From an uncultured Erysipelotrichaceae bacterium (GTDB lineage Bacteria; Bacillota_I; Bacilli_A; RF39; UBA660): a DNA stretch of 64,000 bases. Positions 2,553-19,204 of this stretch are shown here, piece by piece. The translations under genes and the position numbers were made by a program. The notes under the pieces were generated by a model. It was not told where the DNA came from. It saw only the letters and a program-made list of their open reading frames with translations, and did no database searches. The stretch spans positions 10,819 through 74,818 of the forward strand of contig CACZGA010000001.1 in NCBI GenBank assembly GCA_902780585.1, given 5' to 3'. The first letter of the stretch is position 1. Each line of letters starts with the position of its first letter.

Positions 2553-2845
2553 TAATTACCGAATCTACATTAGATAAACTTCCAAAAAAAGAGCAGAACC
2601 TAATAGTTGCTTTATTAAGTGATTTAGAAGAAATAAATCATAATTTATCATTACGTTCTCCTAATATACAACTAGACTGGATTGATAAACATACTGAATA
2701 TCCTCCAGAAAGAGTAGATCCTTGTCCAGATTATTATGGAATGTATAGAGTAATTCAAGGAAATAAAGTTTTAGGAGTTGAAATGGATATAGATACTCTT
2801 GATACAGCTTTATGTTTATTATATAATTTTATAATAGATGACTAA
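2549..2845 (+). CDS. hypothetical protein
   Basis: ORF track entry with an ATGA overlap onto the upstream gene. Confidence 0.55.
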   Translation: MIITESTLDKLPKKEQNLIVALLSDLEEINHNLSLRSPNIQLDWIDKHTEYPPERVDPCPDYYGMYRVIQGNKVLGVEMDIDTLDTALCLLYNFIIDD

Positions 2846-2987
2846 GAAAGATATAATTAAGATATTAGAGAAAGGACTAGAATCTTGTGAATTTAATTAT
2901 AGTCCAGAAGATATTTGGTATAAGATAATAGGAATTTATCTTAGAGAAACAAGTAATAGTAAATATGAAGAAGAGTTAGAATCTTAA
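2838..2987 (+). CDS. small hypothetical protein (49 aa)
   Basis: ATG 2838 to TAA 2985-2987, translated by hand. Confidence 0.35.
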   Translation: MTKKDIIKILEKGLESCEFNYSPEDIWYKIIGIYLRETSNSKYEEELES

Positions 2988-3519
2988 TACAGGTGTCAAA
3001 ATAACTGATAAAGGGGGAAATACTTATATATACGATAGTATAGAAAAAGCCTCTGAGATGACACAAATGAGTATACAAACATTAAAAATAAGAGCTAATA
3101 AAAATAATATTCCTAAAGATGGAATAAAAGTTGAATGGTTAGATCCATCAACTAAAAAACATTACACTGCTAAGAGATCTAAGCAAAAAGGTAGTCAACT
3201 TGAGCTAGATGTTATTCACAAGTTAAACGAAATAGGATATAATACTGTTAGTAGTAGATCTAATAGTAAAAATCTTGATAATGCAAAAGTAGATGTAGAT
3301 GATTTAGGTGGAAATCTTCCAGTTTATATTTAGTGTAAAGCTACATAGACAACTCCCTCTTATTTTAAAATAGAAGAAGAGTGTCCTTTAAAAGATAAAG
3401 ATTTTGTAGTTGTTTGGAAGAAACAAGATAAAGATGGAGGACAAAGTCCAGGTACTGTTTTTATTGCTCCATTAAGTTTGTTATATGATTATTTAACTTT
3501 AAAATTAAGAAATGAATAA
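2965..3519 (+). CDS. TAG-containing nuclease candidate: NUMOD1-like HTH plus an Hjc / T7 endonuclease I-like PD-(D/E)XK core
   Basis: Track ORF 3058-3333 stops at TAG. Reading through TAGs at 3331 and 3346 continues the frame to TAA 3517-3519, which overlaps the next ATG (3512). The KGSQLELDVIHKLNEIGYNTVSSRS...VDVDD...PVYI[TAG]CKAT layout parallels Hjc (GSxxE ... D ... ExK). An upstream ATG at 2965 (one more TAG at 2977) completes a GVKITDKGGNTYIYDSIEKASEMTQMSIQTL motif typical of NUMOD1 HTH modules. The alternative start is 3058. Confidence 0.45.
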
Positions 3520-3739
3520 ATATATTTATGCTGAGGCTACTGAGGATTACTGGCCTCAAATTAAATCAATTGAAGCTCGTTCTTATAACGACGCTGTTGA
3601 AAAAATTATTAATAAATATGCAGCTGAATTAGATGATGATGAACTTTTAACTTATGATGATTGGGAATCTTTTAGAGATTTTCTCAATGAATTCAAAGCA
3701 ATCGCATTATCTGATTTGGAAATTTATGAAGAATTATAA
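3512..3739 (+). CDS. hypothetical acidic protein
   Basis: ORF track entry. Confidence 0.55.
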   Translation: MNKYIYAEATEDYWPQIKSIEARSYNDAVEKIINKYAAELDDDELLTYDDWESFRDFLNEFKAIALSDLEIYEEL

Positions 3740-4359: not shown

Positions 4360-5387
4360 TGGAAATTGATAAAGAATTAATTAAACAAATTAAAATAACT
4401 CCAATATTGGATTCTTTAAAACTAGAGGATATTGATGATGATATATATTTTTCAGAGAAATTTAAAAACTACATAAGTAATTCACGTTTAGGAATACTTA
4501 AAAAAGATGGTGTTAAAGTTTTCTTTGAAGGAATACCTCAAGTATATAATCCAAGTTTTGAAACAGGTAGTCTTATTCATCAACAAGTATTACAACCAGA
4601 AGCATTTGAAGTAATTAATACTGTATTTAAACCAACAGCTAAAGCTGGATTAATGGCTGATGCTTTATATAAATCTGATGGAACTGTTCCTACTGATGAT
4701 GAAATTAAAAGTATGTCTTATGTAATTGGTTATTACAAAGATAAACTTACTGTTAATAGACTTAGTGAATTTAGACAAAAAGCAGAACCATATTGGAGAG
4801 ATAGATTTCTATATGAGACAAATAATCCTTTTAAGGAGGGTGATAAGAAACGTATATATACTGATGAGAGGAATTTTGAATTATTAACAAATTGTCTTAA
4901 AACATTAAATGAAGATAAAAATATTCAAAATTTACTTCATCCAAGTGGTATTATAGATATTCCAATTATAGGAAATGAAAAAACTATTTTGTTAGATATT
5001 CAGATGGAAGTTCCTGGATATGAACCAAGAACATATAAATTAAAGGCTAAATTAGATAATTTTAGTATTGATACAGAAGAAAATACTATAACTGTAAATG
5101 ATTTAAAAACTACTAGTAGACCTGCTGTTCAGTTTGATCCAGAATATTTTAGTTATCAAAGAGAAATTGCTTTTTATAGTTATTTACTTAAGAATGTTGC
5201 TAGTAAGTATTATAATATAGAAAAACCTGTAGTTAAAGGTAATTTCTTAGTAGTATCTACAATTCCAGATTATAATACTTTAGTATATCCTATGACTCCA
5301 AAATTATTTAAGAGTGGAATGCAAGAAGTAAGTTATTTACTTAAATGTGTTGCATATTTTAATCAAGTTAAAGGATATGAATTTTAA
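4359..5387 (+). CDS. PD-(D/E)XK nuclease, RecB/Cas4-like family
   Basis: Ordered motifs GSLIHQQV, KLDNFSID ... VNDLKTT (D ... D-x-K) and QREIAFYSY (QxxxY). Confidence 0.6.
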   Translation: MEIDKELIKQIKITPILDSLKLEDIDDDIYFSEKFKNYISNSRLGILKKDGVKVFFEGIPQVYNPSFETGSLIHQQVLQPEAFEVINTVFKPTAKAGLMADALYKSDGTVPTDDEIKSMSYVIGYYKDKLTVNRLSEFRQKAEPYWRDRFLYETNNPFKEGDKKRIYTDERNFELLTNCLKTLNEDKNIQNLLHPSGIIDIPIIGNEKTILLDIQMEVPGYEPRTYKLKAKLDNFSIDTEENTITVNDLKTTSRPAVQFDPEYFSYQREIAFYSYLLKNVASKYYNIEKPVVKGNFLVVSTIPDYNTLVYPMTPKLFKSGMQEVSYLLKCVAYFNQVKGYEF

Positions 5388-5724
5388 GGAGCTTAGAAGT
5401 TTTTATTCTGAACATTTTAGTTTAGGATATTTAAATCTTCCAGACAAAGATGGACATTCTTCATTCGAAAGAAAACTAATTCTTATTTCTCTAATATGTT
5501 ATGTTGTAGAGAAAAATAAAGCAAAAAATCCAGATTTAACTCATTATGCTTTATTATATAGGATAAATTCAAATTTAAATTTACCTGATGATTTCATAAA
5601 AGGATTAGCAATAGTTTGTGAAGATTTTTCATATCAATGTCACAACTTTCCTACATTTGGTCTGGAAGGCAAAAAAATTTTAGAAGAGATAGTTTCAATT
5701 CTAAAAACTTATATTCCGTTTTGA
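5377..5724 (+). CDS. hypothetical protein
   Basis: The track ORF starts at GTG 5347. The in-frame ATG at 5377 overlaps the upstream stop. Confidence 0.5.
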   Translation: MNFKELRSFYSEHFSLGYLNLPDKDGHSSFERKLILISLICYVVEKNKAKNPDLTHYALLYRINSNLNLPDDFIKGLAIVCEDFSYQCHNFPTFGLEGKKILEEIVSILKTYIPF

Positions 5725-5883
5725 TAAAAATTTTCAAATGTTAAAAATATGTTAAAATCATATTTTTTATTTTGAGAATTAATAATAAATAATAAATTTA
5801 ATATGTTCTTCGATGAGGAGAAAGATAATTCCATAATAGTAGATAGTTGATGTCAGCTTAGGCTGAATGAAAATGTATAAATT

Positions 5884-6435
5884 ATGATTTTTATTATGGA
5901 GAATAATGTATTCTTTACGAAATTTGAGACTATTGGTTTAACCAAAGATGAAGCTAAGAAGAACTCTGAACTTAACCTTCGTGTTGATGCTACACAGGCA
6001 TATAAGAAATGGGCTAAGGAAAATACAACTAATGAAGATAATGTAAGAGAATGGATGGTTGACTATCTTAATAAGAAAAAGTTTAATATGCCTAATGATG
6101 GTGCATATATCGTTCTTCAGTCACCTGTTCTCGATTCAAGAGAGCGTCCTTATAAGGTAGAAAAGATTAAGTATGAAACTCGTACACATACTCCTATAAG
6201 AGTTTATGTTGGACGTGCTCAAGATACCGGTGAGGAAATCTTCACTGAGAAGAATGCAAAGGCTGCTGAACAAGCTGCTAAGGAGTGGTTGATTGATAAC
6301 CATGTAGGTGTAGATATTGCTATTGAAACTCGTATGAAAGAGAAGAATTCTCTTTATGCAAAGGTTAATTATGTTCCTTCAAAGGGTACACAACCTTGTA
6401 AGTTACTTGTATTTGGTTATAAGGTTATGCAATAA
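5884..6435 (+). CDS. hypothetical protein in a stand-alone expression unit
   Basis: 183-aa ORF with a 159-nt AT-rich spacer upstream and a strong hairpin terminator downstream. Its codon choice (cgt, ctt, ggt) is less AT-skewed than in neighbouring genes. Confidence 0.6.
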   Translation: MIFIMENNVFFTKFETIGLTKDEAKKNSELNLRVDATQAYKKWAKENTTNEDNVREWMVDYLNKKKFNMPNDGAYIVLQSPVLDSRERPYKVEKIKYETRTHTPIRVYVGRAQDTGEEIFTEKNAKAAEQAAKEWLIDNHVGVDIAIETRMKEKNSLYAKVNYVPSKGTQPCKLLVFGYKVMQ

Positions 6436-6524: not shown

Positions 6525-8021
6525 ATGAATAAAATAAGTGAGAAAAAAGTAAAAGAATTAATTGAAGAATTAACAAAACTATCTTCTTTAAAAGATAGTA
6601 AAAGAAAAATAAGCTATTGGTATTCTCAAAAACAAAATGTTGTAAATTCTGAAAATTTATCTACAGATCTAATTAAAGAATTTCTAGATTTATACAATAG
6701 TTTAAAGAAGAAATCTGGAAGAGTAGAAAGTGTAGAAACTGATGATAGAGCTATCACAAATGTAGAAAGAGATGAAGATGGATTAATTCAATATTATACA
6801 TTTGAAATATATAGAAAAGATTCTCCTACTTTAATTGGAAAACTTGATAGAAAAGAAATGGAAACTATATATAGGTTATATACTATATATGGAGCTAATC
6901 TTACACAAAAAATTGTATCTAGAGAATTTCCGGAATATACATTTGTAGAATTTAAAAGAATTTTAAGAGCATTTAATATTTATAAAGCCAATTCTGAATT
7001 TGCTCCTCATATTATAGAAGAAAGATCAGAAGAAGAACTTATTAATCTTCATAATCAAAATAAAGAAAATAATGTTCTTAGAAGAATTGAGAAAGATCAA
7101 TTAGTTGAAGCTAATAAACTTATTAATAAATTAGCTAAAGAAAATCTTGAATTAAAGAAAAACACAGGAGATTTTCATTTTATTGAAGATGTAGAAATCA
7201 AGCCTTTTAAAATTAAAGAAAAATATGATACACATAAAGATTTAATATTACATTTATCTGATATTCATGTTGGAGCAAAATGTAATAGTGGAAGTCTTTA
7301 TGAAAATAATTGGAATGAAGAAGAGCTTGAAAGAAGGCTTAGTAGAATCGTTGATTTAATTGAAGATTCATTTGGTATTCTTGATACAATAGTTATAAAT
7401 ATGTTAGGAGATTATCTTGATGGAATGGATAATCAAACCGCAAGACGTGATCATTTTATGCCTCAAAACATGGATAATAGAGAACAATTTAATGTTTTTA
7501 TTAGACAAATGTTAATGTTTGTTGGCAAATTAAGTAACTATTGTAGTAGAATTATCATATATGCTGTTCCAGAAGGAAATCATGGAGGAACTGCTGATTA
7601 TATGGCTATTAAAGCATTAGAATATATTACAACAAAGAAGTTTCCTGATATTAAATTTAACGTATTTGAAAAGTATTATGGATATTACAAATTTAATAAT
7701 GAATCGTATGTCTTACATCATGGTAAGGACGGACAATTTATGAAGAAACCTATGCCATTAAATCTTAATGATTCGGCTAGTGTTATGATTAGAGATTGGC
7801 TTGATACAGAAGGAATTTATGAAAGTAATGTTCATATTATAAAAGGTGATTTACATTCTAATAATCTTAATTCTTGTAGAAAATTTGATTATAGAAATGT
7901 ATTAAGTCTTTTTGGTAATTCAGATTATAGTATGATGAATTATCCAACTAATTCATATGGTATCTCATATGATTTCTTTATTAATGGATTTAGAACTATA
8001 GGAACATTCGAAAATTTTTAG
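6525..8021 (+). CDS. calcineurin-like metallophosphoesterase (Mre11/SbcD-like) with an N-terminal coiled-coil region
   Basis: Motifs LSDIHVG, MLGDYLDG, EGNHGG and LHHGKDG occur in the canonical order. The ORF ends at TAG 8019-8021, and the next in-frame stop is TGA 8043-8045. Confidence 0.7.
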   Translation: MNKISEKKVKELIEELTKLSSLKDSKRKISYWYSQKQNVVNSENLSTDLIKEFLDLYNSLKKKSGRVESVETDDRAITNVERDEDGLIQYYTFEIYRKDSPTLIGKLDRKEMETIYRLYTIYGANLTQKIVSREFPEYTFVEFKRILRAFNIYKANSEFAPHIIEERSEEELINLHNQNKENNVLRRIEKDQLVEANKLINKLAKENLELKKNTGDFHFIEDVEIKPFKIKEKYDTHKDLILHLSDIHVGAKCNSGSLYENNWNEEELERRLSRIVDLIEDSFGILDTIVINMLGDYLDGMDNQTARRDHFMPQNMDNREQFNVFIRQMLMFVGKLSNYCSRIIIYAVPEGNHGGTADYMAIKALEYITTKKFPDIKFNVFEKYYGYYKFNNESYVLHHGKDGQFMKKPMPLNLNDSASVMIRDWLDTEGIYESNVHIIKGDLHSNNLNSCRKFDYRNVLSLFGNSDYSMMNYPTNSYGISYDFFINGFRTIGTFENF

Positions 8022-8022
8022 A

Positions 8023-8763
8023 ATGGAAATGATAACAAGAGATGAAGTATTATCCCAAGCAGTTAATCAATGTATAAAAGAATTATATTCTTTAGTACAA
8101 CCACATGTAGAATGGGATGAATTTGTAATACAAAATAAATTGTATTCAAACCAGTATAAAATATGGGAGGAATCAAGAGATACTGATCCTAATTATATAG
8201 GAAAATCTATAGTAGAATGCATAGGTCCTCGTCCTTATGAATTTTATTATCTTCCTAAAGAAGTAATGAAGAGAGTATGTGATTCTTATGTATATGCTTA
8301 TAGAATTGATACTAGACAAGAATTTTTAGATAGTATAGAAGTTCTCAAAAATTATTGTAAAGAACCTATTGTTGATAAATGGATTGAAGGAGAAGATGAA
8401 AATGATCCTGGACATAGAGGATATGAGCATCCCGATAGTCTACATAAAGAATTAGCAACAATACTAAAGATATATTGCGACGATTCCGAAGCTGATTTTG
8501 GATATGTAGCACAAGAAATACAAAACAAGTTCTTTGAATTCTTAGATATGGCTGGTAACTTCTATAATTGGAATAGAGATTTAAATACTTTTAGTGTCTC
8601 TGTATATTTAGGTCCTAGTCCTAATTCTAATAAAGAAGCAGTTATAGAAAATTGGAAAAAATATAGAGATAAAGACATAAAAATTGATGAAAAACAATAT
8701 GAAGACGAGGATATTGATGATGAACAAATAGAAGAAGAATTTTATGGAGAAGAATTGGATTGA
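8023..8763 (+). CDS. hypothetical protein with an acidic C-terminus
   Basis: ORF track entry. Confidence 0.6.
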   Translation: MEMITRDEVLSQAVNQCIKELYSLVQPHVEWDEFVIQNKLYSNQYKIWEESRDTDPNYIGKSIVECIGPRPYEFYYLPKEVMKRVCDSYVYAYRIDTRQEFLDSIEVLKNYCKEPIVDKWIEGEDENDPGHRGYEHPDSLHKELATILKIYCDDSEADFGYVAQEIQNKFFEFLDMAGNFYNWNRDLNTFSVSVYLGPSPNSNKEAVIENWKKYRDKDIKIDEKQYEDEDIDDEQIEEEFYGEELD

Positions 8764-10205: not shown

Positions 10206-10378
10206 AATTGATAAGAATAATTGACGATGCTAATAATTATATTAATGCTGATTTCTTAGTAAGAGTTTGGAGAGAAGATAATAAACAATATTGTCAATTA
10301 GTAACCGGAACTACTTATCAGATAAGCAAGAATGCTCTTATAAAAATCTTAGAATATGACAAGGAAACAAGCAAATAG
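10202..10378 (+). CDS. small hypothetical protein (58 aa)
   Basis: ATG 10202 to TAG 10376-10378. Overlaps the start of the next ORF. Confidence 0.3.
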   Translation: MKLIRIIDDANNYINADFLVRVWREDNKQYCQLVTGTTYQISKNALIKILEYDKETSK

Positions 10379-10595
10379 GACTATATTATTAGAACTCTAT
10401 AATTTAATTGAAAAATATCCAAGTTTAAGATTTGGACAAATTCTTGTTGATTGTGATATAATTCAAGAAGAAGAAGTCTTATTGGAAGGAGAAAGACAAA
10501 CTGTACTAATTGGAATTGATCCGTTTTATGAAGAATCTGAAGATACTTTAAATAGAATGATGAATAGTAAAATTATCAGTAAAGAGTACAATTAG
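10356..10595 (+). CDS. hypothetical protein
   Basis: ORF track entry. Ends at TAG 10593-10595, with a backup TAA at 10617-10619. Confidence 0.5.
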   Translation: MTRKQANRTILLELYNLIEKYPSLRFGQILVDCDIIQEEEVLLEGERQTVLIGIDPFYEESEDTLNRMMNSKIISKEYN

Positions 10596-10617
10596 AGTCT
10601 TAAATACTATTTTGATT

Positions 10618-10668
10618 AAAGGGTTAATAAGAATATATTTATAATTCTAATAACCCTTTAATTTTTAT
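10618..10668 (+). terminator. hairpin terminator upstream of nrdD
   Basis: aaagggttaataagaat / attctaataacccttt forms a stem with one bulge and is followed by aattttta. Confidence 0.55.
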
Positions 10669-10671
10669 TAT

Positions 10672-12879
10672 ATGAATAAAGAAACAATGTTTATTGTAAA
10701 AAGGTCAGGAAAAAAAGAAATTTTTAATCCTGATAAAATTAAAAATGCTGTAAGAGCAGCCTTTAATTCAGTAGGCTATTCTATAGATGAAGATGTATAT
10801 GATGAAATAGTTAATTCTGTAAAAGTTTGGAATGAAATGACTATTGAGGATATTCAAGATCAAGTAATTGAAACACTTAGAAATCTTGATTATGATGAAA
10901 TAGCAGACTGTTATCAAGCTTACAGATTAGAACACAAACAAGCAAGATTTATCCGAGAAAGAATTGATTATATGGATAAATACGCTAACTCTGGAGATAA
11001 TGCATCTACAGCATCTGAAACTGACGCAAACGCAAATGTTACTATGAAAAATGTAGCTAATCTTGAAGGTGAAGTTTATAAGGTAACAAATAGACGTATC
11101 CAGAGACAAAGAATGAAAGATAAACTCAATGAATTATATCCTGAAGATAATGATTTGGGTAAACAATATATAAAAGATTTAGAAAATTGGATTATTTACA
11201 CACATGATGAAGCCTCATCTCCAGTATTAAAACCTTATTGTATGGCAGCAACTCTTTATCCATTAATGGCTGAAGGTGTTGGTGTAATAGATGGAGTAAC
11301 TCCTACTCCTCCAAATGATATACAATCATTTAGTGGACAGGTAACTAATTTAGTATTTTTATTATCAGCATCTGCAAAAGGCGCAATAGCATTAGGTGAT
11401 TATTTTATAGCACTTAACTATTATGTAATAGCAGAATATGGTCCAAAATGGTATGATAAACTTGATGTTAATACAACTACAGATCACTGTTTAAAACCAA
11501 TGACTATTCGAAGAGCTATTAGAAAAGGAATGAAACAATTTATCTATGGTGTTAATCAACCAGCAGGTAACAGAAGTTATAATTCTCCTTTCTCTAATTG
11601 TTCTTATTATGATAAAACATACTTTAATAGTATATTTGAGGATTTCTACTATCCTGATGGAACTCAACCCGAATGGAAAGCTATAGATACTCTTCAAAGA
11701 ATATTTATGGAACTTCACAGAGAACTTAGACTTATTAAACCATTAACATTCCCTGTTACTACATTTGCTATGGTACATGATGGTACTGATGTAATTGATA
11801 AAGAATATAAACAATTATGTGCAGATGAATGGGCTAAAGGTGGAAGTTTCTTCTGTTATCTTTCTAATAATCCATCGGCATTAGCTAGTTGTTGTAGAGT
11901 ACTTAATGAAATGTCTGAAAATACATTTAGTAGTACTACTGGAATGACTGGAATCATGACTGGTTCTTGTAACGTAATTACTCTTAATATTAATAGAATT
12001 GTTCAAGATTGTGCTAGAAAACATCACGCTTGTATGTTTAGAGAAGATCAACAACAATCTATATCTATGCATGGAAGGTTTCCAGATTATTTAAAAGAAT
12101 ATCTTATTTCTATATTAGAGAGAGTTTATAAATATCATATTGCTTATAAAACAATGCTTTATGATTTAGAAGAGAAAGGAATGTTTTCTCCTTCTAATGG
12201 AGGATATATTTATATGAAGAAACTCTATTCTACTATCGGACTTATAGGTTATACTGAAGCAGCTCAATTCTTAGGGATGAAAGTTTCTAATAATCAAGAA
12301 TATATTGATTTCTTAAAATTAATATTTGGTACAGTAAAGGAACAGAATAAGTTAAATTCTATTAGAAATAAGAAGAGACCTATTTTATTTAACAGTGAAG
12401 CTATACCAGGTGAAGGATTAGGTGTAAAATTATATGAACATGATAAAAAAGATGGATATTGGGTACCTGAAGATCAAAATCTATACAATTGTTACTTCTA
12501 TAATCCTTGGGATAATACTTCTATTCTTGATAAGTTTATTCTCCATGGTAAGCAAGTTGCTTCGTTCTGTGACGGAGGTCAAGCACTTCACGCAAATCTT
12601 GACGAACATCTTTCAAAGGAACAATATCTTAAATTAATAAATTTTGCTATACAAGAAGGAACTAATTATTTTACATTTAATATCCCAATTAGTGAATGTA
12701 AATCTTGTGGTCATGTTGTAAATGCTCCAATTCAAGAATGTCCTAAATGTGGTAGTAATAATATTGATTATTGGACTAGAATTATTGGGTATCTAAGACC
12801 TGTAAGTGCATTTAGTAATCCTAGAAAGATTGAACAAAAGAAACGAGTTTATAGTACTAACTTAAATGAAATACCTTAA
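10672..12879 (+). CDS. nrdD: anaerobic ribonucleoside-triphosphate reductase (class III)
   Basis: N-terminal ATP-cone (VKRSGKKEIFNPDKIKNAVRAAF), C-terminal Zn ribbon CKSCGH...CPKCGS and glycyl-radical motif RIIGYLRPV; 735 aa. Confidence 0.95.
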   Translation: MNKETMFIVKRSGKKEIFNPDKIKNAVRAAFNSVGYSIDEDVYDEIVNSVKVWNEMTIEDIQDQVIETLRNLDYDEIADCYQAYRLEHKQARFIRERIDYMDKYANSGDNASTASETDANANVTMKNVANLEGEVYKVTNRRIQRQRMKDKLNELYPEDNDLGKQYIKDLENWIIYTHDEASSPVLKPYCMAATLYPLMAEGVGVIDGVTPTPPNDIQSFSGQVTNLVFLLSASAKGAIALGDYFIALNYYVIAEYGPKWYDKLDVNTTTDHCLKPMTIRRAIRKGMKQFIYGVNQPAGNRSYNSPFSNCSYYDKTYFNSIFEDFYYPDGTQPEWKAIDTLQRIFMELHRELRLIKPLTFPVTTFAMVHDGTDVIDKEYKQLCADEWAKGGSFFCYLSNNPSALASCCRVLNEMSENTFSSTTGMTGIMTGSCNVITLNINRIVQDCARKHHACMFREDQQQSISMHGRFPDYLKEYLISILERVYKYHIAYKTMLYDLEEKGMFSPSNGGYIYMKKLYSTIGLIGYTEAAQFLGMKVSNNQEYIDFLKLIFGTVKEQNKLNSIRNKKRPILFNSEAIPGEGLGVKLYEHDKKDGYWVPEDQNLYNCYFYNPWDNTSILDKFILHGKQVASFCDGGQALHANLDEHLSKEQYLKLINFAIQEGTNYFTFNIPISECKSCGHVVNAPIQECPKCGSNNIDYWTRIIGYLRPVSAFSNPRKIEQKKRVYSTNLNEIP

Positions 12880-13324
12880 TACAATGGTTACATTTAGTGA
12901 ATTTCCAGATGAAATTGCTTTATGTATAAATATAACTAATTGTCCTTTCCATTGTCCTGGATGCCATAGTCCAGAACTTTGGGAAGATATTGGAATAGAA
13001 TTAACATTTGATGAACTTAATAAACTTATAAAATCTAATAAAGGAATTACTTGTGTTGGATTTATGGGAGGTTTTCCTTTAAGTGTATATGATGCAGCCT
13101 GTTTTATTAAAGCTAATTATAATTTAAAAGTAGGTTGGTATTGGGGAGGTGAAAAGAATAATTATCCTTTGTATATTTATAATATATTAGATTATATTAA
13201 ACTTGGACCTTATGATAAAGAATTAGGAGGATTAGGTAGTCCTAATACTAATCAAAAATTCTATAAAATAGAAAATGGACAATTAATAGATTGGACTTAT
13301 AAATTTTGGAAACATGGAAAATAA
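12866..13324 (+). CDS. nrdG: anaerobic RNR activating enzyme (radical SAM)
   Basis: CPFHCPGC cluster (CxxxCxxC) near the N-terminus; 152 aa; overlaps the nrdD stop. Confidence 0.9.
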   Translation: MKYLNTMVTFSEFPDEIALCINITNCPFHCPGCHSPELWEDIGIELTFDELNKLIKSNKGITCVGFMGGFPLSVYDAACFIKANYNLKVGWYWGGEKNNYPLYIYNILDYIKLGPYDKELGGLGSPNTNQKFYKIENGQLIDWTYKFWKHGK

Positions 13325-13514
13325 TAATAAAGTAACGATAGGATGTGCTACTCCAGCAGTAGTTATTGTATTTCTGGCATTCTTTTTTGCTAAAATATTT
13401 GATAAAATAGATTGGAGTTGGTGGTGGGTATTCAGTCCATTATGGATTCCTGCTCTATTATGTATAACATTTTTAATAATTATATTTATACTTAAAATAT
13501 GGCTAGAATGGTAG
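13314..13514 (+). CDS. small two-TM membrane protein
   Basis: Hydrophobic stretches VVIVFLAFFFAKIF and LLCITFLIIIFIL. Ends at TAG 13512-13514, with a backup TAA at 13521-13523. Confidence 0.5.
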   Translation: MENNNKVTIGCATPAVVIVFLAFFFAKIFDKIDWSWWWVFSPLWIPALLCITFLIIIFILKIWLEW

Positions 13515-13780
13515 AAATCATAACTGATGGATATCCAAAAGAAGATCAGGTTCTTCTTGATGAAATAACTTGTAAATATGTTCAAGAACCTGATTGTACT
13601 GAAAGTAGAGATGATGATTGGCAGGAAATAATATTATCATCAAGAGATGGAGGAGGTGGTAAATTTATCCATATTAAAACTACAGGTTGGAGCATTAATG
13701 GAGATAAATTAGAAGATGATTTAATTCCTCTAATTAATGATTTTAAGAAAAGAATGAATGAAACTTTTAATAATACCTGA
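13499..13780 (+). CDS. hypothetical protein
   Basis: ORF track entry. Confidence 0.5.
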   Translation: MARMVEIITDGYPKEDQVLLDEITCKYVQEPDCTESRDDDWQEIILSSRDGGGGKFIHIKTTGWSINGDKLEDDLIPLINDFKKRMNETFNNT

Positions 13781-14414
13781 TGTTCATGGTCGTGATTTCT
13801 GGATAGAGCCTTGTTCTCACATAGATGAATTTGATAAAGTAATTTTTTTAGGAGATTATCATGATCCATATTCTTATGAAGTAAGTCAAGATACTTCTAG
13901 ACATAGATTACGTGATGAATTATTACCATTTGTTCAAGAACATCAAGATAAAGTTATATGTTTATTTGGAAATCATGATGGTAATTATTTAGTTGGAGAT
14001 ATGGCTGATAGAGTTGATTATTGGAATAAAGCTAAAATAAAAGAATATTTACAGAAAATGAATCTTAAACTAATTCATAGAGAAGGTAAATATTTATTTT
14101 CACATTCTGGAGTACTTCCTAAATGGTTAGATTCAAATAATTTAACTTTAGAAGATTTAGAAATTTTATCATTTGATCATCAAGCTTTAATGCAAGTATC
14201 TCCTTATAGAGGCGGATGGTTCTCTGAAGCTGGTAGTTGTATATGGGGTGATGTTAGAGAATATGCTACAAAAGAACATATTCCAGATATTTATCAAATA
14301 TTTGGACATACTCAACTACAAAAAGATGCTATAATAGAGAAAGATTGGGCTTGTTTAGATTGTAGAAAAGCTTTTGTCTTAGAAAACGATACTATCAAAG
14401 AATGGAGGCAATAA
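13758..14414 (+). CDS. metallophosphoesterase, lambda-phosphatase / PrpE-like
   Basis: Motifs IPDVHGR, FLGDYHD, FGNHD and FGHT in the canonical order. Confidence 0.8.
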   Translation: MKLLIIPDVHGRDFWIEPCSHIDEFDKVIFLGDYHDPYSYEVSQDTSRHRLRDELLPFVQEHQDKVICLFGNHDGNYLVGDMADRVDYWNKAKIKEYLQKMNLKLIHREGKYLFSHSGVLPKWLDSNNLTLEDLEILSFDHQALMQVSPYRGGWFSEAGSCIWGDVREYATKEHIPDIYQIFGHTQLQKDAIIEKDWACLDCRKAFVLENDTIKEWRQ

Positions 14415-14671
14415 TAGTTTATGATGATAAGAAAGATAGGGAACTTTTGAATTTAGTAGATTCTAAGTTTCCTATTTTTATTGAATATATAGATTTTAAT
14501 ACAGTAGAAGGTAGAAAAGAAGCATATAGAGTAAAATCATATTGGGGTGCTAGAAAAAATCCTTTTGTTGTAGTACAAGAAGAAGAGAAGATAATTAAAG
14601 TATTCTATACAGAAAATGGTAAGAATGCTATTCAACAATTAATTAATTATCTAAATGAAAGTAAAAATTAA
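14402..14671 (+). CDS. hypothetical protein; possible glutaredoxin/NrdH-like fold without a CxxC motif
   Basis: 89 aa. The layout IIVYDD...IEYIDFNT...NPFVVV resembles NrdH, but there is no redox cysteine pair. Confidence 0.35.
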   Translation: MEAIIVYDDKKDRELLNLVDSKFPIFIEYIDFNTVEGRKEAYRVKSYWGARKNPFVVVQEEEKIIKVFYTENGKNAIQQLINYLNESKN

Positions 14672-15140
14672 ATTATTAGACGAAAAGGCAAAGGTTCCTT
14701 TTAAAAAACATATAGATGGAGATGCTTGTTATGATTTAGTTCCAGTAAGTTATAAGTATAATCCTAAATATGATAGATTTGAATATGCTTTAGGATTTGC
14801 TACTGAATTTAGTTCAGATTGGGAAGCTGAAATTAGACCAAGAAGTACTAATACCAAGACAGATGCATATATCCCAAATACTCCACCCACTATTGACTCT
14901 AATTATCGTGGAGAATGGCTAATAATGTACAAACTTCGTACTCCATTTGAACAATTATTTCCAGAAGGAGATAGAGAATTAAATATTCTTGAAATGGAAA
15001 ACGAACTTGCTCCTTATAAAATTGACGGAACACCTATTGCTCAAGTTAAATTTAATAGAGTTGAACATACTGATTGGATCGAAGTAGATGAATTATCTGA
15101 TACTAGTAGAGGTGCAGACGGAGGACTTAAAAGAGTATGA
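14655..15140 (+). CDS. dut: dUTP pyrophosphatase
   Basis: dUTPase motifs GDACYDL, RPRS, TIDSNYRGEW and a C-terminal SRGADGG. Confidence 0.85.
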   Translation: MKVKIKLLDEKAKVPFKKHIDGDACYDLVPVSYKYNPKYDRFEYALGFATEFSSDWEAEIRPRSTNTKTDAYIPNTPPTIDSNYRGEWLIMYKLRTPFEQLFPEGDRELNILEMENELAPYKIDGTPIAQVKFNRVEHTDWIEVDELSDTSRGADGGLKRV

Positions 15141-15490
15141 TTACTAAAGAACATTTCATTGACTTTATAACTGAATATCAGAATTTTGACAAAGCTATAG
15201 AGAGATTGGAGATAGCTATATCTGGAAAGAAATACGGATGTAATTTATTTGAAAGTGATTGGTATGAATCTGTAGCTAGAATGTTTGATGTATTTCTAGA
15301 ATCTTTCTTTACAGATGATGGACAGGATGTTATAACTTGGTGGTTATTTGAAGATGTTGATCATATTATATGGCAAAAAACTGATCCAGACTTATTTAAT
15401 GGAAAATCTGAAATAGAATATAATGTCAATGATATAGAAGATTTGTGGAATTATCTGTTTAAATACAAAGAGGATTACTTAAATGACTGA
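15137..15490 (+). CDS. hypothetical protein
   Basis: ORF track entry with an ATGA overlap. Confidence 0.55.
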   Translation: MITKEHFIDFITEYQNFDKAIERLEIAISGKKYGCNLFESDWYESVARMFDVFLESFFTDDGQDVITWWLFEDVDHIIWQKTDPDLFNGKSEIEYNVNDIEDLWNYLFKYKEDYLND

Positions 15491-16742
15491 TGATTTATTT
15501 AAACCACAAGAAGTAATTCCTAACAGTAAAACTTGGAATTTAATTACTAAGGATGCTAAAGGAAAGATTAGGTTTGCAATTATTAGTTATGAATTAATAA
15601 ATCCAAAAGATAAACAAACAAGACATTTTCTAATTCATCGTATAACTGGACAATACGGTGGTAAAAGAACTAGTCAACCTGATAAAACTGTTGATAGAGG
15701 TAAGGCTACAAGAAATATGTGGGATCAAGTAATGCTTGAAGCTAAACACTTGGTAAAAGAAAAACTTGATAGTGGTTATAAGGAAATTGAAAAAGATCCA
15801 GATGAGTATTCTGAATCCGAATTAATATCTATTCTTGGTGAAGTAATTACTAGTCAAGATGGAGTTCCTAAGCCAATGCTTGCTAAACAGGTTGATAAAG
15901 TAACTAGTACTAAAATATTTGATAAAGTTTGGTTAGGCTCTCGTAAAATTGACGGATTAAGAGCGTTGATTTATATGGGAACTGATGGTAAACTTCATAC
16001 TTCTTCAAGAGGAGCTATGAATTATGATGCTGCAATGTATCAAATAATTACTAATCCTACTTTAATTAAATTATTTAAAGAAAATCCAGGACTTATAATG
16101 GATGGAGAATGTTATCATCATGGATATACACTTCAACAACTTAATTCTATAGCTAGAACTCAAAAAACTGCTGTTGACTATGATATATTACAATTTTATT
16201 GGTATGATATAGTTGATACTAATTCTACTTTTGATGAACGTTGGGCTTATATGCAGGATTTAAAAGATGAATATAATTTTGGATTTGATCCTGAAAAAGA
16301 GTTTGATAGAGAAGAACTTAGAATTCAATTTGTTCCTCAAGTAGAAGTTTCTGGATATAATAATATGATCAAACTTCATAATGATTATGTAGAAGAAGGT
16401 TGGGAAGGATTAGTTATAAGAGATCCAGATAAGGTTTATAAACCTAATGGACGTACTAATGATATGATTAAAATTAAGGTTTATAAGGATGATTGCTTTA
16501 AAGTTGTAGGTAAAGAAGCAGGTCTTCGTGGAAGTGAAGATATGGTCTTTATTATGCAAATGCCTGATGGTAGAATATTTAAAGCAAAACCATTTGGTGA
16601 CAGGGAACAGAAGGAAGAGTATTGGAATAATTTTGAAGATAAATATAATGGTCATATAGGAGAATGTAAGTTCTTCTATTATAGTGATGATGGTATTCCT
16701 CTTCAACCAGCATTTAAGGCATTTAGAGACGATATAGAATGA
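15483..16742 (+). CDS. ATP-dependent DNA ligase
   Basis: Adenylation motif I KIDGLRA, then IMDGECY, EGLVIRD and MIKIKVYKD (motifs III-V). Confidence 0.9.
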   Translation: MTDDLFKPQEVIPNSKTWNLITKDAKGKIRFAIISYELINPKDKQTRHFLIHRITGQYGGKRTSQPDKTVDRGKATRNMWDQVMLEAKHLVKEKLDSGYKEIEKDPDEYSESELISILGEVITSQDGVPKPMLAKQVDKVTSTKIFDKVWLGSRKIDGLRALIYMGTDGKLHTSSRGAMNYDAAMYQIITNPTLIKLFKENPGLIMDGECYHHGYTLQQLNSIARTQKTAVDYDILQFYWYDIVDTNSTFDERWAYMQDLKDEYNFGFDPEKEFDREELRIQFVPQVEVSGYNNMIKLHNDYVEEGWEGLVIRDPDKVYKPNGRTNDMIKIKVYKDDCFKVVGKEAGLRGSEDMVFIMQMPDGRIFKAKPFGDREQKEEYWNNFEDKYNGHIGECKFFYYSDDGIPLQPAFKAFRDDIE

Positions 16743-17092
16743 TTACATACAATTTTGTTATATTAGATGTTAATAAAACTATTAGTCCTTTCCTTAATCT
16801 TTTAGATGAAAATAAATTTTTAGAAAAATTATGGGAATGGTGTTATGAAGATGACTTATGGGATTTTATTGATGAAAATCCAGAAGTATTGACTAATTCT
16901 GAAGATTTAGAAAATTATATACTTGATACTTTTATTCCAGAAGATTTATTTCATCGTTATGAAGATGATGATTTAAATTGTTTTGCATTTGCTGTATCTG
17001 ACGAAAAATTAAATACAAGAGAGTATGATGAAGATAGAGCTCTTGGATTTGTATTAAATAAAATAGAAGAACATTATGGAAAAAGTTTATGA
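16739..17092 (+). CDS. hypothetical acidic protein
   Basis: ORF track entry. Confidence 0.55.
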   Translation: MITYNFVILDVNKTISPFLNLLDENKFLEKLWEWCYEDDLWDFIDENPEVLTNSEDLENYILDTFIPEDLFHRYEDDDLNCFAFAVSDEKLNTREYDEDRALGFVLNKIEEHYGKSL

Positions 17093-17261
17093 AGTAACTC
17101 TTCATAGAGTTGTAGAACATGAAACAGTATATAGAGTTCATGCTGAATCTGAAGAAGAAGCTGAAGAATTAGTATTGTGTTCTGATTATGATGAAATAGT
17201 TGAAGATTCAGAACAAGGAGATATGGAAGATCCAGAAGTAGTTGATATTACTAGAGTATAA
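17076..17261 (+). CDS. hypothetical acidic protein
   Basis: ORF track entry. Confidence 0.5.
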   Translation: MEKVYEVTLHRVVEHETVYRVHAESEEEAEELVLCSDYDEIVEDSEQGDMEDPEVVDITRV

Positions 17262-17419
17262 TGGTTCAAATAGTTAAACAAACTCATGAAGAAAAAGTAG
17301 CAATGTATATGAAATGTAAGAAAAAACAACTTGCTGAAATGCTTGCTACTAGGGATGATTATGATGAAATAAATAGTAATACAGAAAATTATTATTATTA
17401 TGATTCAACTAGTAGTTAA
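17261..17419 (+). CDS. small hypothetical protein (52 aa)
   Basis: TAATG overlap at 17261; runs to TAA 17417-17419. Confidence 0.35.
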   Translation: MVQIVKQTHEEKVAMYMKCKKKQLAEMLATRDDYDEINSNTENYYYYDSTSS

Positions 17420-17918
17420 TGTCAATTTACTAAGAGAAATAGAAGAATCTAAATTAATAGGAGCTTATGCACGTTTAGTATATAATGATGAACTTGATTT
17501 AACTGACGATACAAGAATAAAAAATAATCTTATTCAACTTCTTGACTGGGATAAAAACGGAGAAAATGGATTAGGATTTTACTGTGGAAAATTTGAATCT
17601 ATTAAGAGAAAAGATTGGGATTTTCTTATAAACTTTATAAAAGAAAATGAACATACTATAAAACAATATGGTTATTATCCATCAAAGGAAAGGAAATTAG
17701 AATCTATAAAAATTATACACGATGCTCTACAAGCAAAGGAGCAACATAATATAGAAAGATTTTCTGATGAAAATTATGAGGTTAGCGGAAGAGGTAAAAA
17801 AGCTAAACCTTGTATATATAAAGGAAGAAAATATAAATCCAGACAAGAATGTATCTATAAAGAAAAAATCACTAAATATGAATTATATAGTTATTTAAAA
17901 GAAACTAAACAATTATGA
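17400..17918 (+). CDS. hypothetical protein
   Basis: ORF track entry. Confidence 0.55.
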   Translation: MIQLVVNVNLLREIEESKLIGAYARLVYNDELDLTDDTRIKNNLIQLLDWDKNGENGLGFYCGKFESIKRKDWDFLINFIKENEHTIKQYGYYPSKERKLESIKIIHDALQAKEQHNIERFSDENYEVSGRGKKAKPCIYKGRKYKSRQECIYKEKITKYELYSYLKETKQL

Positions 17919-19037: not shown

Positions 19038-19204
19038 TATATTTTACTATTGCTAAAAATGACTGTGGATATTTAATTGATAGTATTTCAGATTGTTATG
19101 AAGTACTTAAAGCTAAATTTCCAGATGAAAAAATATATAAATCAGATAAAGCTATAGTTAGTATTTATGTAATTAAAGATCAATTAGAAGAAATAAATGG
19201 CTAA
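19034..19204 (+). CDS. hypothetical protein
   Basis: The track ORF begins at TTG 19007. The in-frame ATG at 19034 makes an ATGA overlap with the sigma-factor stop. Confidence 0.45.
   Translation: MIYFTIAKNDCGYLIDSISDCYEVLKAKFPDEKIYKSDKAIVSIYVIKDQLEEING

What the first reader, a model, noticed from the sequence alone, without database searches (positions are those of the whole stretch)
2965..3519. The only TAG-interrupted gene of the early module is a nuclease, with TAG at a predicted catalytic position
Track ORF 3058-3333 stops at TAG and leaves a 180-nt unexplained gap. Reading through TAGs at 3331 and 3346 reaches TAA 3517, which overlaps the next start codon as other genes here do. The product aligns by eye with Hjc / T7 endonuclease I-type resolvases: KGSQLE (Glu), VDVDD (Asp) and PVYI[TAG]CK, where Hjc has I-E-x-K. 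If TAG is Gln, the catalytic Glu is replaced by Gln, which is unusual for this fold. An upstream ATG at 2965 (one more TAG) adds a NUMOD1-like HTH, as found in free-standing homing endonucleases. A truncated 91-aa product in the absence of suppression and a full nuclease when suppression is active would amount to translational gating of a potentially toxic enzyme. Its TAG density (3 in 184 codons) matches late genes rather than its neighbours.
Basis: partly seen in the sequence, partly recalled or inferred. Interest (0 to 1): 0.7.

Follow-up and report, generated by a model that had tools for sequence, protein, structure and literature searches.

The report
Amber-gated resolvase gene in crAss-like phage
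A phage that reads the stop codon TAG as glutamine in its late genes keeps one TAG at the very start of an otherwise normally coded DNA-cutting enzyme gene, which probably delays production of that enzyme until the phage has switched the cell's genetic code.

Summary
The coordinates and the three in-frame TAGs are correct. Nucleotides 2965-3519 are one real gene of 184 codons, read with TAG = Gln.

The product has an N-terminal NUMOD/I-HmuI-like DNA-binding domain and a C-terminal Hjc-like (archaeal-type Holliday-junction resolvase) PD-(D/E)XK nuclease domain.

The headline claim fails. At the motif-III column, 78 of 80 unique orthologues use CAA or CAG. Gln is invariant even in distant stand-alone nuclease-domain relatives. 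The TAG at 3331 is therefore a rare synonymous Gln codon, not a recoded Glu and not a conserved feature.

- 82 of 93 unique orthologue sequences carry a TAG at codons 3-7.
- Four more have it at codon 19 or 36-38.
- The rest of the gene uses TAG for only 4.5% of Gln codons, against 46% in late genes.
- The TAG persists across saturated synonymous divergence, slides between positions and sits in about 20 different leader peptides.
- No TAG column in a late control gene exceeds 33%.

Best reading: a sentinel amber codon that gates translation inside a standard-code operon. Two TAG-recoded relatives and one TGA-recoded relative lack any gate. Timing and suppressor tRNA are untested.

The parts
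2965..3519 (+). Complete nuclease gene. It has 184 sense codons including 3 TAG = Gln, plus the TAA stop.
   Evidence: Translation. About 200 full-length homologues. Codon alignments.
2965..2967 (+). ATG start codon. It lies 23 nt inside the 3' end of the small upstream ORF 2838..2987.
   Evidence: All 107 complete orthologue loci have an in-frame ATG 2-6 codons upstream of the leader TAG. No consistent ATG/GTG/TTG follows the TAG.
2977..2979 (+). Sentinel (leader) amber codon, codon 5. This is the conserved feature.
   Evidence: 82 of 93 unique orthologues have a TAG at codons 3-7. Gln-type codons in the leader are TAG 72 / CAA+CAG 12, against 24 / 505 in the rest of the gene (Fisher p = 1.6e-59). 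With one representative per 80%-identity cluster the counts are 17/2 against 9/119 (p = 6e-14).
2986..3138 (+). N-terminal strand-strand-HTH-strand DNA-binding domain (residues about 8-58), NUMOD / I-HmuI-like.
   Evidence: AF2 model with pLDDT 83. Foldseek hit to I-HmuI 1u3e_M, 54 columns, rmsd 2.3. BFVD NUMOD1 and HNH-endonuclease DNA-binding domains. PF22083 below threshold in 10 of 38 members.
3160..3516 (+). C-terminal Hjc-like PD-(D/E)XK nuclease domain (residues about 66-184).
   Evidence: PHROG 244 at E 2.8e-8. Hjc 1hh1 at E 0.014 with motifs aligned. Foldseek 2eo0_B, probability 0.98. BFVD homologues named HJC / Holliday junction resolvase.
3202..3204 (+). Motif I glutamate, Glu80 (GAG).
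   Evidence: Invariant in 80 orthologues and in the wider family. Aligns with Hjc Glu12.
3277..3294 (+). Asp105 to Asp110 (D-N-A-K-V-D). Asp110 is the motif II aspartate. Asp105 is a second family-invariant aspartate.
   Evidence: Both are invariant in alignment A3. Asp110 aligns with Hjc Asp42.
3331..3339 (+). Motif III, Gln123 (TAG) - Cys - Lys125. Here the TAG is only a rare synonymous Gln codon.
   Evidence: The column is CAA 72 / CAG 6 / TAG 2. Lys125 is invariant. Gln is invariant in distant relatives.
3346..3348 (+). Third in-frame TAG, codon 128. It sits at a mostly-Gln, non-conserved column.
   Evidence: The column is CAA 57, CAG 6, TAG 4, others 13.
3512..3739 (+). Downstream 75-aa gene. 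Its ATG overlaps the nuclease stop by 8 nt (ATGAATAA).
   Evidence: The downstream ATG overlaps the stop by 4 or 8 nt in 53 of 73 orthologue loci.

Best explanation
The gene encodes a core recombination/debranching nuclease of a Zeta-type crAss-like phage. It combines a NUMOD-like DNA-binding domain with an Hjc-like PD-(D/E)XK domain carrying Glu80, Asp105/Asp110 and Gln123-x-Lys125.

The gene lies inside a tightly packed, standard-code replication/recombination operon, in the order primase, nuclease, RecE-like exonuclease, Mre11-like nuclease. One amber codon is kept 2-6 codons after its ATG.

Proposed mechanism:
- While TAG is still read as stop, ribosomes that initiate here release a 2-6 residue peptide and no nuclease is made.
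- Once the phage's amber suppression (TAG = Gln) is established, the same mRNA yields the full enzyme.
- The sentinel codon thus uncouples translation of this one gene from its co-transcribed neighbours.
- A branch-cutting enzyme is thereby delayed, or kept at threshold level, until replication intermediates must be resolved for packaging.

Shown here: the gene, its fold class, TAG = Gln, and conservation and relocation of the leader TAG.
Inferred: co-transcription with neighbours, the timing of suppression, and the enzyme's substrate.
For: 1. TAG = Gln. Every TAG that falls at a conserved column aligns with CAA/CAG in orthologues. The same holds in late genes.
2. Leader TAG census. 82 of 93 unique sequences carry it at codons 3-7, and 4 more have a TAG at codon 19 or 36-38 instead.
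3. Contrast within the gene. TAG makes up 86% of Gln-type codons in codons 1-8 but 4.5% in the rest of the gene, against 46% in the window's late genes.
4. Not inertia. There are 21 clusters at 80% nucleotide identity. Four-fold-site identity between clusters is 0.40, against 0.41 expected by chance. The TAG occupies codon 3, 4, 5, 6 or 7 in about 20 different leader peptides. L014/L071 lost the leader TAG but has a TAG at the otherwise CAA/CAG Gln38.
5. Baseline. In a conserved late protein of 27 TAG-recoded relatives, TAGs scatter over 39 columns and none exceeds 33% occupancy.
6. Not a by-product of gene overlap. All 40 loci with no or minimal upstream overlap carry the leader TAG.
7. No room for a private promoter. 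The upstream gene ends between -41 and +4 nt of the ATG in most loci, and the downstream ATG overlaps the stop in 53 of 73.
8. Core gene. 25 of 25 loci with flanks of at least 2.5 kb keep the primase ... nuclease ... RecE-like order.
9. Code typing. Six leader-TAG contigs were typed on the same contig and all have TAG-recoded late genes.
10. Other nucleases. In the relative MT835492, other TAG-bearing genes of the standard-code block include a LAGLIDADG-like and a GIY-YIG homing endonuclease.
11. Precedents. Borges et al. proposed the same logic for a TGA-recoded intron endonuclease in an early gene (bioRxiv 10.1101/2021.08.26.457843, section 8). T4 endonuclease VII acts at packaging (PMC3016281, section 9). 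T4 nuclease ORFs on early polycistronic mRNAs are held back translationally (PMC2988022, section 12).
Against: - Two TAG-recoded relatives have no TAG anywhere in the gene: contigs 3300045988_083600 and _108145 (nuclease loci L127 and L128; late genes 18-23 TAG per 1000 codons).
- A TGA-recoded relative has neither TAG nor TGA in the gene: contig 3300045988_116629, where L126 is nucleotide-identical to L107. The gate is therefore dispensable and has not arisen convergently with TGA.
- If the gene were translated only under full suppression, its other Gln codons should drift toward late-gene TAG usage. They do not (4.5%). This fits a threshold or attenuation role at least as well as a strict late switch.
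- No suppressor tRNA was found in the window or in any fetched locus.
- No expression data exist.
- The nuclease assignment rests on sub-threshold profile matches and weak fold matches (E 0.006-0.014).
Confidence: 0.6

Rival explanations
1. The TAG at the motif-III (catalytic) codon is the meaningful one. It would either replace a catalytic Glu with Gln or switch between a truncated 91-aa product and the full nuclease.
For: TAG does sit opposite Hjc Glu55 in the profile alignment. The window's gene has an unusually high TAG count for this family, 3 against a typical 1.
Against: The column is CAA 72 / CAG 6 / TAG 2. Gln is invariant down to 28% identity. 'Glu or Gln' is an accepted motif-III variant (PMC8805305). 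The true start lies upstream of a TAG at codon 5, so the unsuppressed product is 4 residues, not 91.
Confidence: 0.03
2. Dosage attenuator rather than timer. The single amber codon lowers the yield of a potentially toxic nuclease, because suppression competes with release factor 1, throughout the period in which the operon is expressed.
For: The rest of the gene avoids TAG (4.5% of Gln codons), as expected if each extra TAG costs yield. Exactly one TAG is the norm. Some lineages do without it.
Against: Late genes carrying 70-96 TAGs require near-complete suppression per codon once the switch is on, so a single TAG would then attenuate very little. Attenuation could be achieved at any Gln codon, yet the TAG is confined to the first 7 codons.
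Confidence: 0.2
3. Neutral relic. The leader TAG is an inherited synonymous Gln codon with no function.
For: The sequences are related, so counts are not independent. The N-terminal residues are unstructured and variable (pLDDT below 50 for residues 1-3). Three lineages lack the TAG.
Against: Synonymous sites are saturated between the 21 clusters (0.40 against 0.41 by chance). The neighbouring leader residues vary freely but the TAG stays. Its position shifts and it is compensated when lost. Late-gene TAG columns never exceed 33% occupancy at comparable divergence.
Confidence: 0.07
4. Nonsense-polarity switch. Early termination at codon 3-7 leaves about 550 nt of untranslated mRNA. This would provoke Rho-type polarity or break translational coupling, so the amber codon would control the downstream genes (g3512, g3740, RecE-like exonuclease) as well as the nuclease.
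For: The downstream ATG overlaps the nuclease stop by 4-8 nt in 53 of 73 loci. The 5'-most position maximises the ribosome-free stretch.
Against: No test was possible. Downstream replication/recombination genes are themselves TAG-free and are presumably needed before the switch. 20 of 73 loci have no overlap.
Confidence: 0.08
5. The protein is a domesticated or selfish homing-type endonuclease rather than a junction resolvase. The amber codon limits its expression as is known for other phage homing endonucleases.
For: A NUMOD-like DNA-binding domain fused to a nuclease is the architecture of free-standing homing endonucleases. Homing endonucleases in MT835492's standard-code block also carry TAGs.
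Against: The syntenic position is fixed in 25 of 25 loci over 37-96% identity. The catalytic residues are invariant. There is no sporadic presence or absence.
Confidence: 0.12

Closest known systems
Archaeal-type Holliday junction resolvase Hjc (PF01870; PDB 1hh1, 2eo0) and phage Hjc_15-6 of Thermus phage Tth15-6 (PMC8805305)
   Same: The three-motif layout G-x3-E ... D ... (E/Q)-x-K has the same spacing (Glu80 to Asp110 = 30 residues, Asp110 to Gln123 = 13, as in Hjc Glu12/Asp42/Glu55). Hjc is the best PDB profile hit and the best fold hit. Viral homologues are already labelled HJC.
   Different: It stays below Pfam's threshold. Motif III is invariantly Gln rather than Glu, and there is an extra invariant Asp105. 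An N-terminal NUMOD-like DNA-binding domain is fused, which Hjc lacks. Activity is untested.
Stop-codon recoding as a regulator of late/lytic genes in crAss-like and other gut phages (Ivanova 2014; Yutin 2021, PMC7886860; Borges et al., bioRxiv 10.1101/2021.08.26.457843; Peters 2022, PMC9523058)
   Same: The genome layout is the same: a standard-code replication block and a TAG = Gln late block. The proposed logic is the same: in-frame stops block translation until the code switch.
   Different: Published cases are whole modules or genes with many recoded codons, and families with biased TAG usage. Here a single codon is kept at a fixed 5'-proximal slot in an otherwise standard-coded gene inside the standard-code block. 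It is conserved, and relocates, across saturated divergence.
TGA-recoded group I intron homing endonuclease inside an early gene of Agate phages (Borges et al., section 8)
   Same: A nuclease embedded in early-expressed sequence carries recoded stops, proposed to delay its production.
   Different: That case is a mobile intron endonuclease with preferential (multiple) TGA use. This one is a syntenic core gene with one amber codon at codons 3-7. The TGA-recoded relative of this gene carries no TGA.
Translational hold-back of T4 nuclease and late ORFs on early polycistronic mRNAs (I-TevI, segB, mobE; RBS-sequestering hairpins; PMC2988022 section 12), and the late role of T4 endonuclease VII at packaging (PMC3016281 section 9)
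   Same: The functional outcome is the same: a nuclease ORF is transcribed with early genes but translated later. Resolvase activity is needed at the packaging stage.
   Different: The mechanism differs entirely. T4 uses RNA structure plus a late promoter. This phage uses a nonsense codon plus a change in decoding.
NUMOD1 / I-HmuI / I-TevI DNA-binding modules of homing endonucleases
   Same: The strand-strand-HTH fold matches (rmsd 2.3 over 54 columns to 1u3e). The sequence pattern is that of a short two-strand hairpin followed by an HTH.
   Different: The module is N-terminal rather than C-terminal. It is fused to a PD-(D/E)XK domain rather than an HNH or GIY-YIG domain. The gene is not mobile.

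Membership tests
Hjc / archaeal-type Holliday junction resolvase (PF01870, PD-(D/E)XK) | Passes the curated Pfam profile threshold. | tested here: not met
   There is no Pfam hit for the window protein, whether Gln or Glu is placed at the TAGs. Hjc matches only 1 of 38 family members, at E 0.024.
Hjc / archaeal-type Holliday junction resolvase (PF01870, PD-(D/E)XK) | Motif I Glu, motif II Asp and motif III (Glu/Gln)-x-Lys, with the canonical spacing. | tested here: met
   A2 profile against PDB: Hjc 1hh1 at E 0.014, with Glu80, Asp110 and Gln123-x-Lys125 aligned to Glu12, Asp42 and Glu55-x-Lys57. These residues are invariant in 80 orthologues and in distant relatives. 'Glu or Gln' is accepted in motif III (PMC8805305 section 3.3).
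Hjc / archaeal-type Holliday junction resolvase (PF01870, PD-(D/E)XK) | Restriction-endonuclease-like alpha/beta fold superposable on Hjc. | tested here: inconclusive
   The top PDB fold hit is 2eo0_B, an Hjc-type resolvase, with probability 0.98. However E is 6e-3, TM-score 0.42 and rmsd 8.9 for the two-domain query. BFVD homologues are labelled HJC. No domain-only model was made.
Hjc / archaeal-type Holliday junction resolvase (PF01870, PD-(D/E)XK) | Homodimer that cleaves four-way DNA junctions in a Mg2+-dependent manner. | not testable with these tools
   This needs purified protein with Gln at the TAG positions.
NUMOD / I-HmuI-like DNA-binding domain (PF22083, PF07453) | Profile match above threshold. 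| tested here: not met
   PF22083 matches 10 of 38 members. The best E is 0.002, below the 27-bit cut-off.
NUMOD / I-HmuI-like DNA-binding domain (PF22083, PF07453) | Strand-strand-helix-turn-helix fold. | tested here: met
   The model shows strands 10-13 and 19-22, helices 25-32 and 36-45, and strand 54-57. It matches 1u3e_M over 54 columns at rmsd 2.3, probability 1.0. Many BFVD NUMOD1 and HNH-endonuclease DNA-binding domains match at rmsd 1.7-3.
Free-standing homing endonuclease (mobile) | Sporadic distribution and variable insertion sites among related genomes. | tested here: not met
   25 of 25 loci with flanks of at least 2.5 kb have the gene between the primase and the g3740 / RecE-like genes.
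Code-15 (TAG = Gln) phage with bimodal coding (Zeta-type crAss-like) | Late genes need TAG as a sense codon. TAG aligns with Gln codons. The replication block is compatible with the standard code. | tested here: met
   ORF content doubles when TAG is read as sense (10,571 to 20,968 aa). TAG aligns with CAA/CAG. The + strand block is TAG-free apart from this gene. NrdD is closest to crAss-like phages. Genome sizes of relatives are 152-194 kb, as for the Zeta group (PMC7886860).
Code-15 (TAG = Gln) phage with bimodal coding (Zeta-type crAss-like) | Phage-encoded suppressor tRNA(CUA). | tested here: inconclusive
   No tRNA was found in the 64-kb window or in any fetched flank. MT835492 has 5 tRNAs and none is a suppressor. 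The window covers only about a third of a genome of roughly 180 kb. Published TAG|q Zeta genomes mostly list Sup(CTA) tRNAs (PMC7886860, Supplementary Data 1).
T7 endonuclease I (PF05367) | Profile or fold similarity. | tested here: not met
   There is no hit in Pfam, in the PDB sequence searches or among the top 50 fold hits.
RusA resolvase (the label of PHROG 244) | RusA fold or profile. | tested here: not met
   Only the PHROG name says 'RusA-like'. All structure and PDB-profile hits are Hjc-type, and none is RusA.

The most novel reading that the evidence does not exclude
A single, positionally maintained 'sentinel' amber codation device: one amber codon within the first seven codons serves as a dedicated, evolutionarily maintained way of putting one gene of a standard-code operon under control of the phage's genetic-code switch. 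It may be one instance of a general rule that nucleases located in standard-code blocks of recoded phages are stop-codon-gated. It might additionally impose nonsense polarity on the downstream recombination genes.
Probability: 0.45. Interest if true: 0.75.

Novelty: new variant of a known kind. Interest (0 to 1): 0.6.

Why it matters
The idea that phages use stop-codon recoding to time gene expression rests mainly on where recoded codons are found (late modules, lysis genes). It does not rest on evidence that individual recoded codons are under selection.

This gene supplies that evidence. One amber codon, in a dispensable N-terminal leader, is retained, moved and compensated across relatives whose synonymous sites are saturated. 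The rest of the gene avoids TAG, and late-gene TAG positions are not conserved.

It gives a minimal, portable test object: a leader of about 20 nt, compared with and without the TAG. With it the code-switch hypothesis can be tested and the onset of suppression during infection measured.

It also has a practical consequence. Standard and even code-aware pipelines mis-start this gene. Database entries of 151-172 aa begin at internal Met codons. Nucleases of recoded phages are therefore likely to be systematically truncated in public annotation.

Tried and rejected
- Pfam on the window protein, with Gln or Glu at the TAGs: no hit.
- Single-sequence PDB search: only a spurious hit at E 0.18.
- Alternative start after the leader TAG: rejected. 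The following codons are AAT/AAA/CTT/TTA/CTG/ACA with no consistent ATG/GTG/TTG, and the conserved L-N-T...V-K strand starts right after the TAG.
- Leader TAG as a by-product of the overlapping upstream ORF: rejected. All 40 loci without overlap have it.
- Leader TAG as part of a conserved DNA motif: rejected. Flanking codons and the +4 base vary (A 42, C 18, T 11, G 1).
- Other early genes with an upstream ATG...TAG (7957/8023, 8684/8744, 14345/14402, 25003/25012): these extensions lie inside the preceding gene and were not pursued.
- Suppressor tRNA: not found anywhere.
- Typing the TAG-free human-gut contigs from Yutin's supplementary tables by name or length: not listed. This was solved instead by fetching late-gene loci of the same IMG/VR contigs.
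- Prediction that TAG-free orthologues come only from non-TAG genomes: half wrong. One clade is TGA-recoded, but L127 and L128 are TAG-recoded.
- Prediction of an 'opal gate' in the TGA-recoded relative: not found.
- General 5' enrichment of TAG in late genes: not seen in the window.
Full report
**1. Observation**

The region reads exactly as described. The ATG is at 2965. In-frame TAGs lie at 2977, 3331 and 3346. The TAA at 3517 overlaps the next ATG at 3512. Code 11 yields only a 91-aa ORF, 3058..3333, followed by a 178-nt gap.

The window is 27.5% G+C. Treating TAG as a sense codon doubles the amino acids in long ORFs, from 10,571 to 20,968. It fuses the - strand fragments between 28,044 and 63,703 into giant ORFs of up to 3,614 codons with 96 TAGs.

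The + strand block 300-27,700 reads cleanly in the standard code. It encodes a primase, RecE-like and Mre11-like nucleases, NrdD/NrdG, a ligase, a sigma-like protein and a DNA polymerase. Within that block this is the only gene interrupted by TAG. NrdD is closest to crAss-like phages. Related contigs are 152-194 kb, the size range of the Zeta group of crAss-like phages, in which TAG, TGA and standard-code lineages are interleaved (PMC7886860).

**2. The gene is real and starts at 2965**

About 200 database proteins of 180-184 aa match from the first residues to the last. The alignment is conserved straight through both internal TAG positions and through the segment between 2965 and 3058.

The DNA of a 93%-identical orthologue shows that the database 'Q' residues can themselves be TAGs. 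All further analysis was therefore done on codons. Loci were fetched from IMG/VR, metagenomes and GenBank.

**3. The protein**

An AlphaFold model (pLDDT 83) shows two domains.
- Residues about 8-58 form a strand-strand-HTH-strand module. It superposes on the DNA-binding domain of the homing endonuclease I-HmuI (54 columns, rmsd 2.3) and on many viral NUMOD1 domains.
- Residues about 66-184 form an alpha/beta nuclease domain. Its best PDB fold hit is the Hjc-type resolvase ST1444 (probability 0.98, E 6e-3).
- The best PDB profile hit is Sulfolobus Hjc (E 0.014). It aligns KGS-x2-E, the Asp of K-V-D, and I-Q-x-K to Hjc Glu12, Asp42 and Glu55-x-Lys57.
- PHROG 244, labelled a junction resolvase, matches residues 68-163 at E 2.8e-8.
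- Two viral homologues in BFVD are already named HJC / Holliday junction resolvase.

All Pfam matches are below threshold. Membership of PF01870 is therefore not established, although the resemblance is consistent across methods. No similarity to T7 endonuclease I was found.

**4. The 'catalytic' TAG is not special**

In 80 unique orthologue sequences the motif-III column is CAA 72, CAG 6, TAG 2. A full-library profile search gave 298 relatives. Many are stand-alone nuclease domains of 110-140 aa. In an alignment reaching down to 28% identity the invariant residues are Gly, Glu80, Asp105, Asp110, Gln123 and Lys125.

Gln is thus the native residue of the family. It is also an accepted motif-III variant of archaeal-type resolvases ('Glu or Gln', PMC8805305 section 3.3, citing Aravind 2000). 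The window's TAGs at codons 123 and 128 are rare synonymous Gln codons. They confirm TAG = Gln and nothing more.

**5. The real anomaly is the TAG at codon 5**

Census of 93 unique orthologue nucleotide sequences:
- 82 carry a TAG at codon 3, 4, 5, 6 or 7, between the ATG and the conserved L-N-T strand.
- 4 lack that TAG but have one at codon 19 or 36-38.
- 7 have no TAG at all.

Codon usage across the 80 sequences of the first census:
- Codons 1-8 hold TAG 72 against CAA+CAG 12.
- The rest of the gene holds TAG 24 against 505. Fisher p = 1.6e-59. With one sequence per 80%-identity cluster the counts are 17/2 against 9/119, p = 6e-14.
- In the window's late genes TAG supplies 46% of Gln codons.

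Evidence that this is not phylogenetic inertia:
- The 21 clusters are saturated at four-fold sites (identity 0.40 against 0.41 by chance).
- The neighbouring leader residues vary freely, giving about 20 leader peptides.
- The TAG slides over four alignment columns.
- In the L001 clade a CAA occupies the old slot and a new TAG sits two codons upstream.
- L014/L071, which lost the leader TAG, has a TAG at Gln38, which is CAA/CAG nearly everywhere else.

Control: a conserved late protein from 27 TAG-recoded relatives has TAGs in 39 columns. None is occupied in more than 33% of sequences, even at invariant Gln columns.

Further checks:
- The TAG is present in all 40 loci where the leader does not overlap the upstream gene.
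- No alternative start codon follows it.
- A distant homologue with a different (zinc-ribbon) N-domain carries a TAG at codon 11 (L120).

**6. Exceptions, typed on the same contigs**

Loci for a conserved late protein were used to type each contig's code.
- Six contigs with a leader TAG all have TAG-recoded late genes (18-23 TAG per 1000 codons).
- The L107/L110-type gene has neither TAG nor TGA. It sits in a TGA-recoded genome (contig 3300045988_116629, where late ORF content rises from 2,394 to 3,693 aa under code 4). There is therefore no convergent 'opal gate'.
- L127 and L128 have no TAG, yet their genomes are TAG-recoded (L180 and L212). That clade sits next to standard-code relatives. 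L179 is 79% identical to L212 in a 1,500-aa late protein, and 23 of 32 TAGs in L212 align with CAG/CAA in L179. A recent code switch may explain the absence, but this is inference.

The gate is therefore strongly maintained in a broad clade but is not obligatory.

**7. Context**

The gene is wedged into its operon. The upstream gene ends between -41 and +4 nt of the ATG in most loci. The next ATG overlaps the stop by 4 or 8 nt in 53 of 73 loci. The order primase ... nuclease ... g3740 ... RecE-like exonuclease holds in 25 of 25 loci with sufficient flanks.

It is thus a vertically inherited core gene, not a mobile homing endonuclease. It has no room for a promoter of its own.

**8. Mechanism proposed**

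The gene is co-transcribed with standard-code neighbours (inferred). Before amber suppression is established, initiating ribosomes terminate after 2-6 codons. Afterwards the full nuclease is made.

Placing the stop at the extreme 5' end avoids truncated DNA-binding fragments and wasted translation. For a branch-cutting enzyme the logic has precedent. T4 endonuclease VII acts mainly at packaging (PMC3016281). T4 nuclease ORFs carried on early polycistronic mRNAs are held back translationally by RNA hairpins (PMC2988022). Borges et al. proposed stop-codon gating for a TGA-recoded intron endonuclease in an early gene.

In the relative MT835492, the standard-code block contains a LAGLIDADG-like and a GIY-YIG endonuclease that also carry TAGs.

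The low TAG usage in the rest of the gene argues that this is not simply a late gene in the wrong place. It leaves open a threshold or attenuator role. The suppressor tRNA was not found in any sequence available, and no timing data exist.

**9. Verdict**

- The fold assignment and the gating idea are broadly right.
- The headline point, a TAG at the catalytic position, is not supported.
- The finding is better restated as a conserved sentinel amber codon at the 5' end of an Hjc-like nuclease gene inside the standard-code block of a TAG-recoded Zeta-type crAss-like phage.
- This is a new variant of a known kind (recoding as a regulator). It has unusually clean evolutionary evidence and is directly testable.

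Noticed in passing
window 6525-8045, 10356-10619, 24119-24460 (+): Three standard-code-block genes end in TAG. Each has a backup in-frame TGA or TAA 7, 7 and 1 codons later. After the code switch these proteins would gain short C-terminal extensions rather than run on. The remaining + strand ORFs of 60 aa or more end in TGA (25) or TAA (21).
   Followed up: partly
L043-L045 (MT835492.1): 5360-5935, 12704-13201, 42756-43160, 55856-56302 (+): In this 121.6-kb human-gut relative, the other TAG-bearing genes of the standard-code block include a LAGLIDADG-like endonuclease (phrog_4645, TAG at codon 77) and a GIY-YIG homing endonuclease (phrog_314, TAGs at codons 108 and 144). Two unknown ORFs have TAGs at codon 2 and at codons 4/25/27/31. 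Nucleases in early blocks may be gated as a rule.
   Followed up: partly
L045 (MT835492.1): 110731-111747 (-) and 112773-113648 (-): Two late genes with very few TAGs keep one at codon 3 ('MF[TAG]FTTT', TAGs at 3 and 286; 'MT[TAG]EYND', its only TAG). This may be the same sentinel principle in highly expressed late genes. No PHROG match was found, and orthologues were not examined.
   Followed up: no
L179 vs L212 vs L180 vs L222 (IMG/VR contigs 3300045988_050010, _108145, _083600, _116629): Close relatives differ in genetic code. A standard-code genome and a TAG-recoded one share 79% identity in a 1,500-aa late protein, and 23 of 32 TAGs align with CAG/CAA. A third relative is TGA-recoded. L167, L168, L170, L172 and L173 are also TGA-recoded. 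This is a fine-grained series for studying code switching.
   Followed up: partly
window 2838-2987 (+): A 49-aa ORF overlaps the first 23 nt of the nuclease gene, including the leader TAG. It has a detectable homologue in only 2 of 25 related loci, where the 98-aa upstream gene usually abuts the nuclease ATG directly. It is a variable small insertion of unknown function.
   Followed up: partly
database proteins P0030-P0044 (170 aa), P0073-P0106 (151-155 aa); BFVD A0A8S5TLV7 (172 aa), A0A8S5RI46 (164 aa): Many public entries for this family start at internal Met codons. This appears to be because the leader TAG was read as a stop, so they lack part or all of the DNA-binding domain. It looks like a systematic annotation artefact. 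The encoding DNA of these particular entries was not inspected.
   Followed up: partly
L120 2165-2494 (JAEIGA010279654.1): A distant homologue has the same nuclease domain (motif 'FYAQVK') fused to a different N-terminal zinc-ribbon-like domain (CPIHG...CPEC). It also carries an early in-frame TAG, at codon 11.
   Followed up: no
window 18195-19037 (+); 34129-44973 (-) and 44975-54088 (-): The standard-code block contains a sigma-factor-like gene (phrog_351, E 1.7e-65). The late block contains two giant ORFs of 3,614 and 3,037 codons with 96 and 73 TAGs. Such genes need near-complete suppression per codon to be translated at all.
   Followed up: no
window 28044-33071 (-): A 1,675-codon late-strand ORF with 21 TAGs contains what looks by eye like a PD-(D/E)XK motif ('VVGRIDLMVV...GILDFKCS'). 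This would be a second nuclease-like protein, encoded in the recoded block. No profile or structure search was run on it.
   Followed up: no
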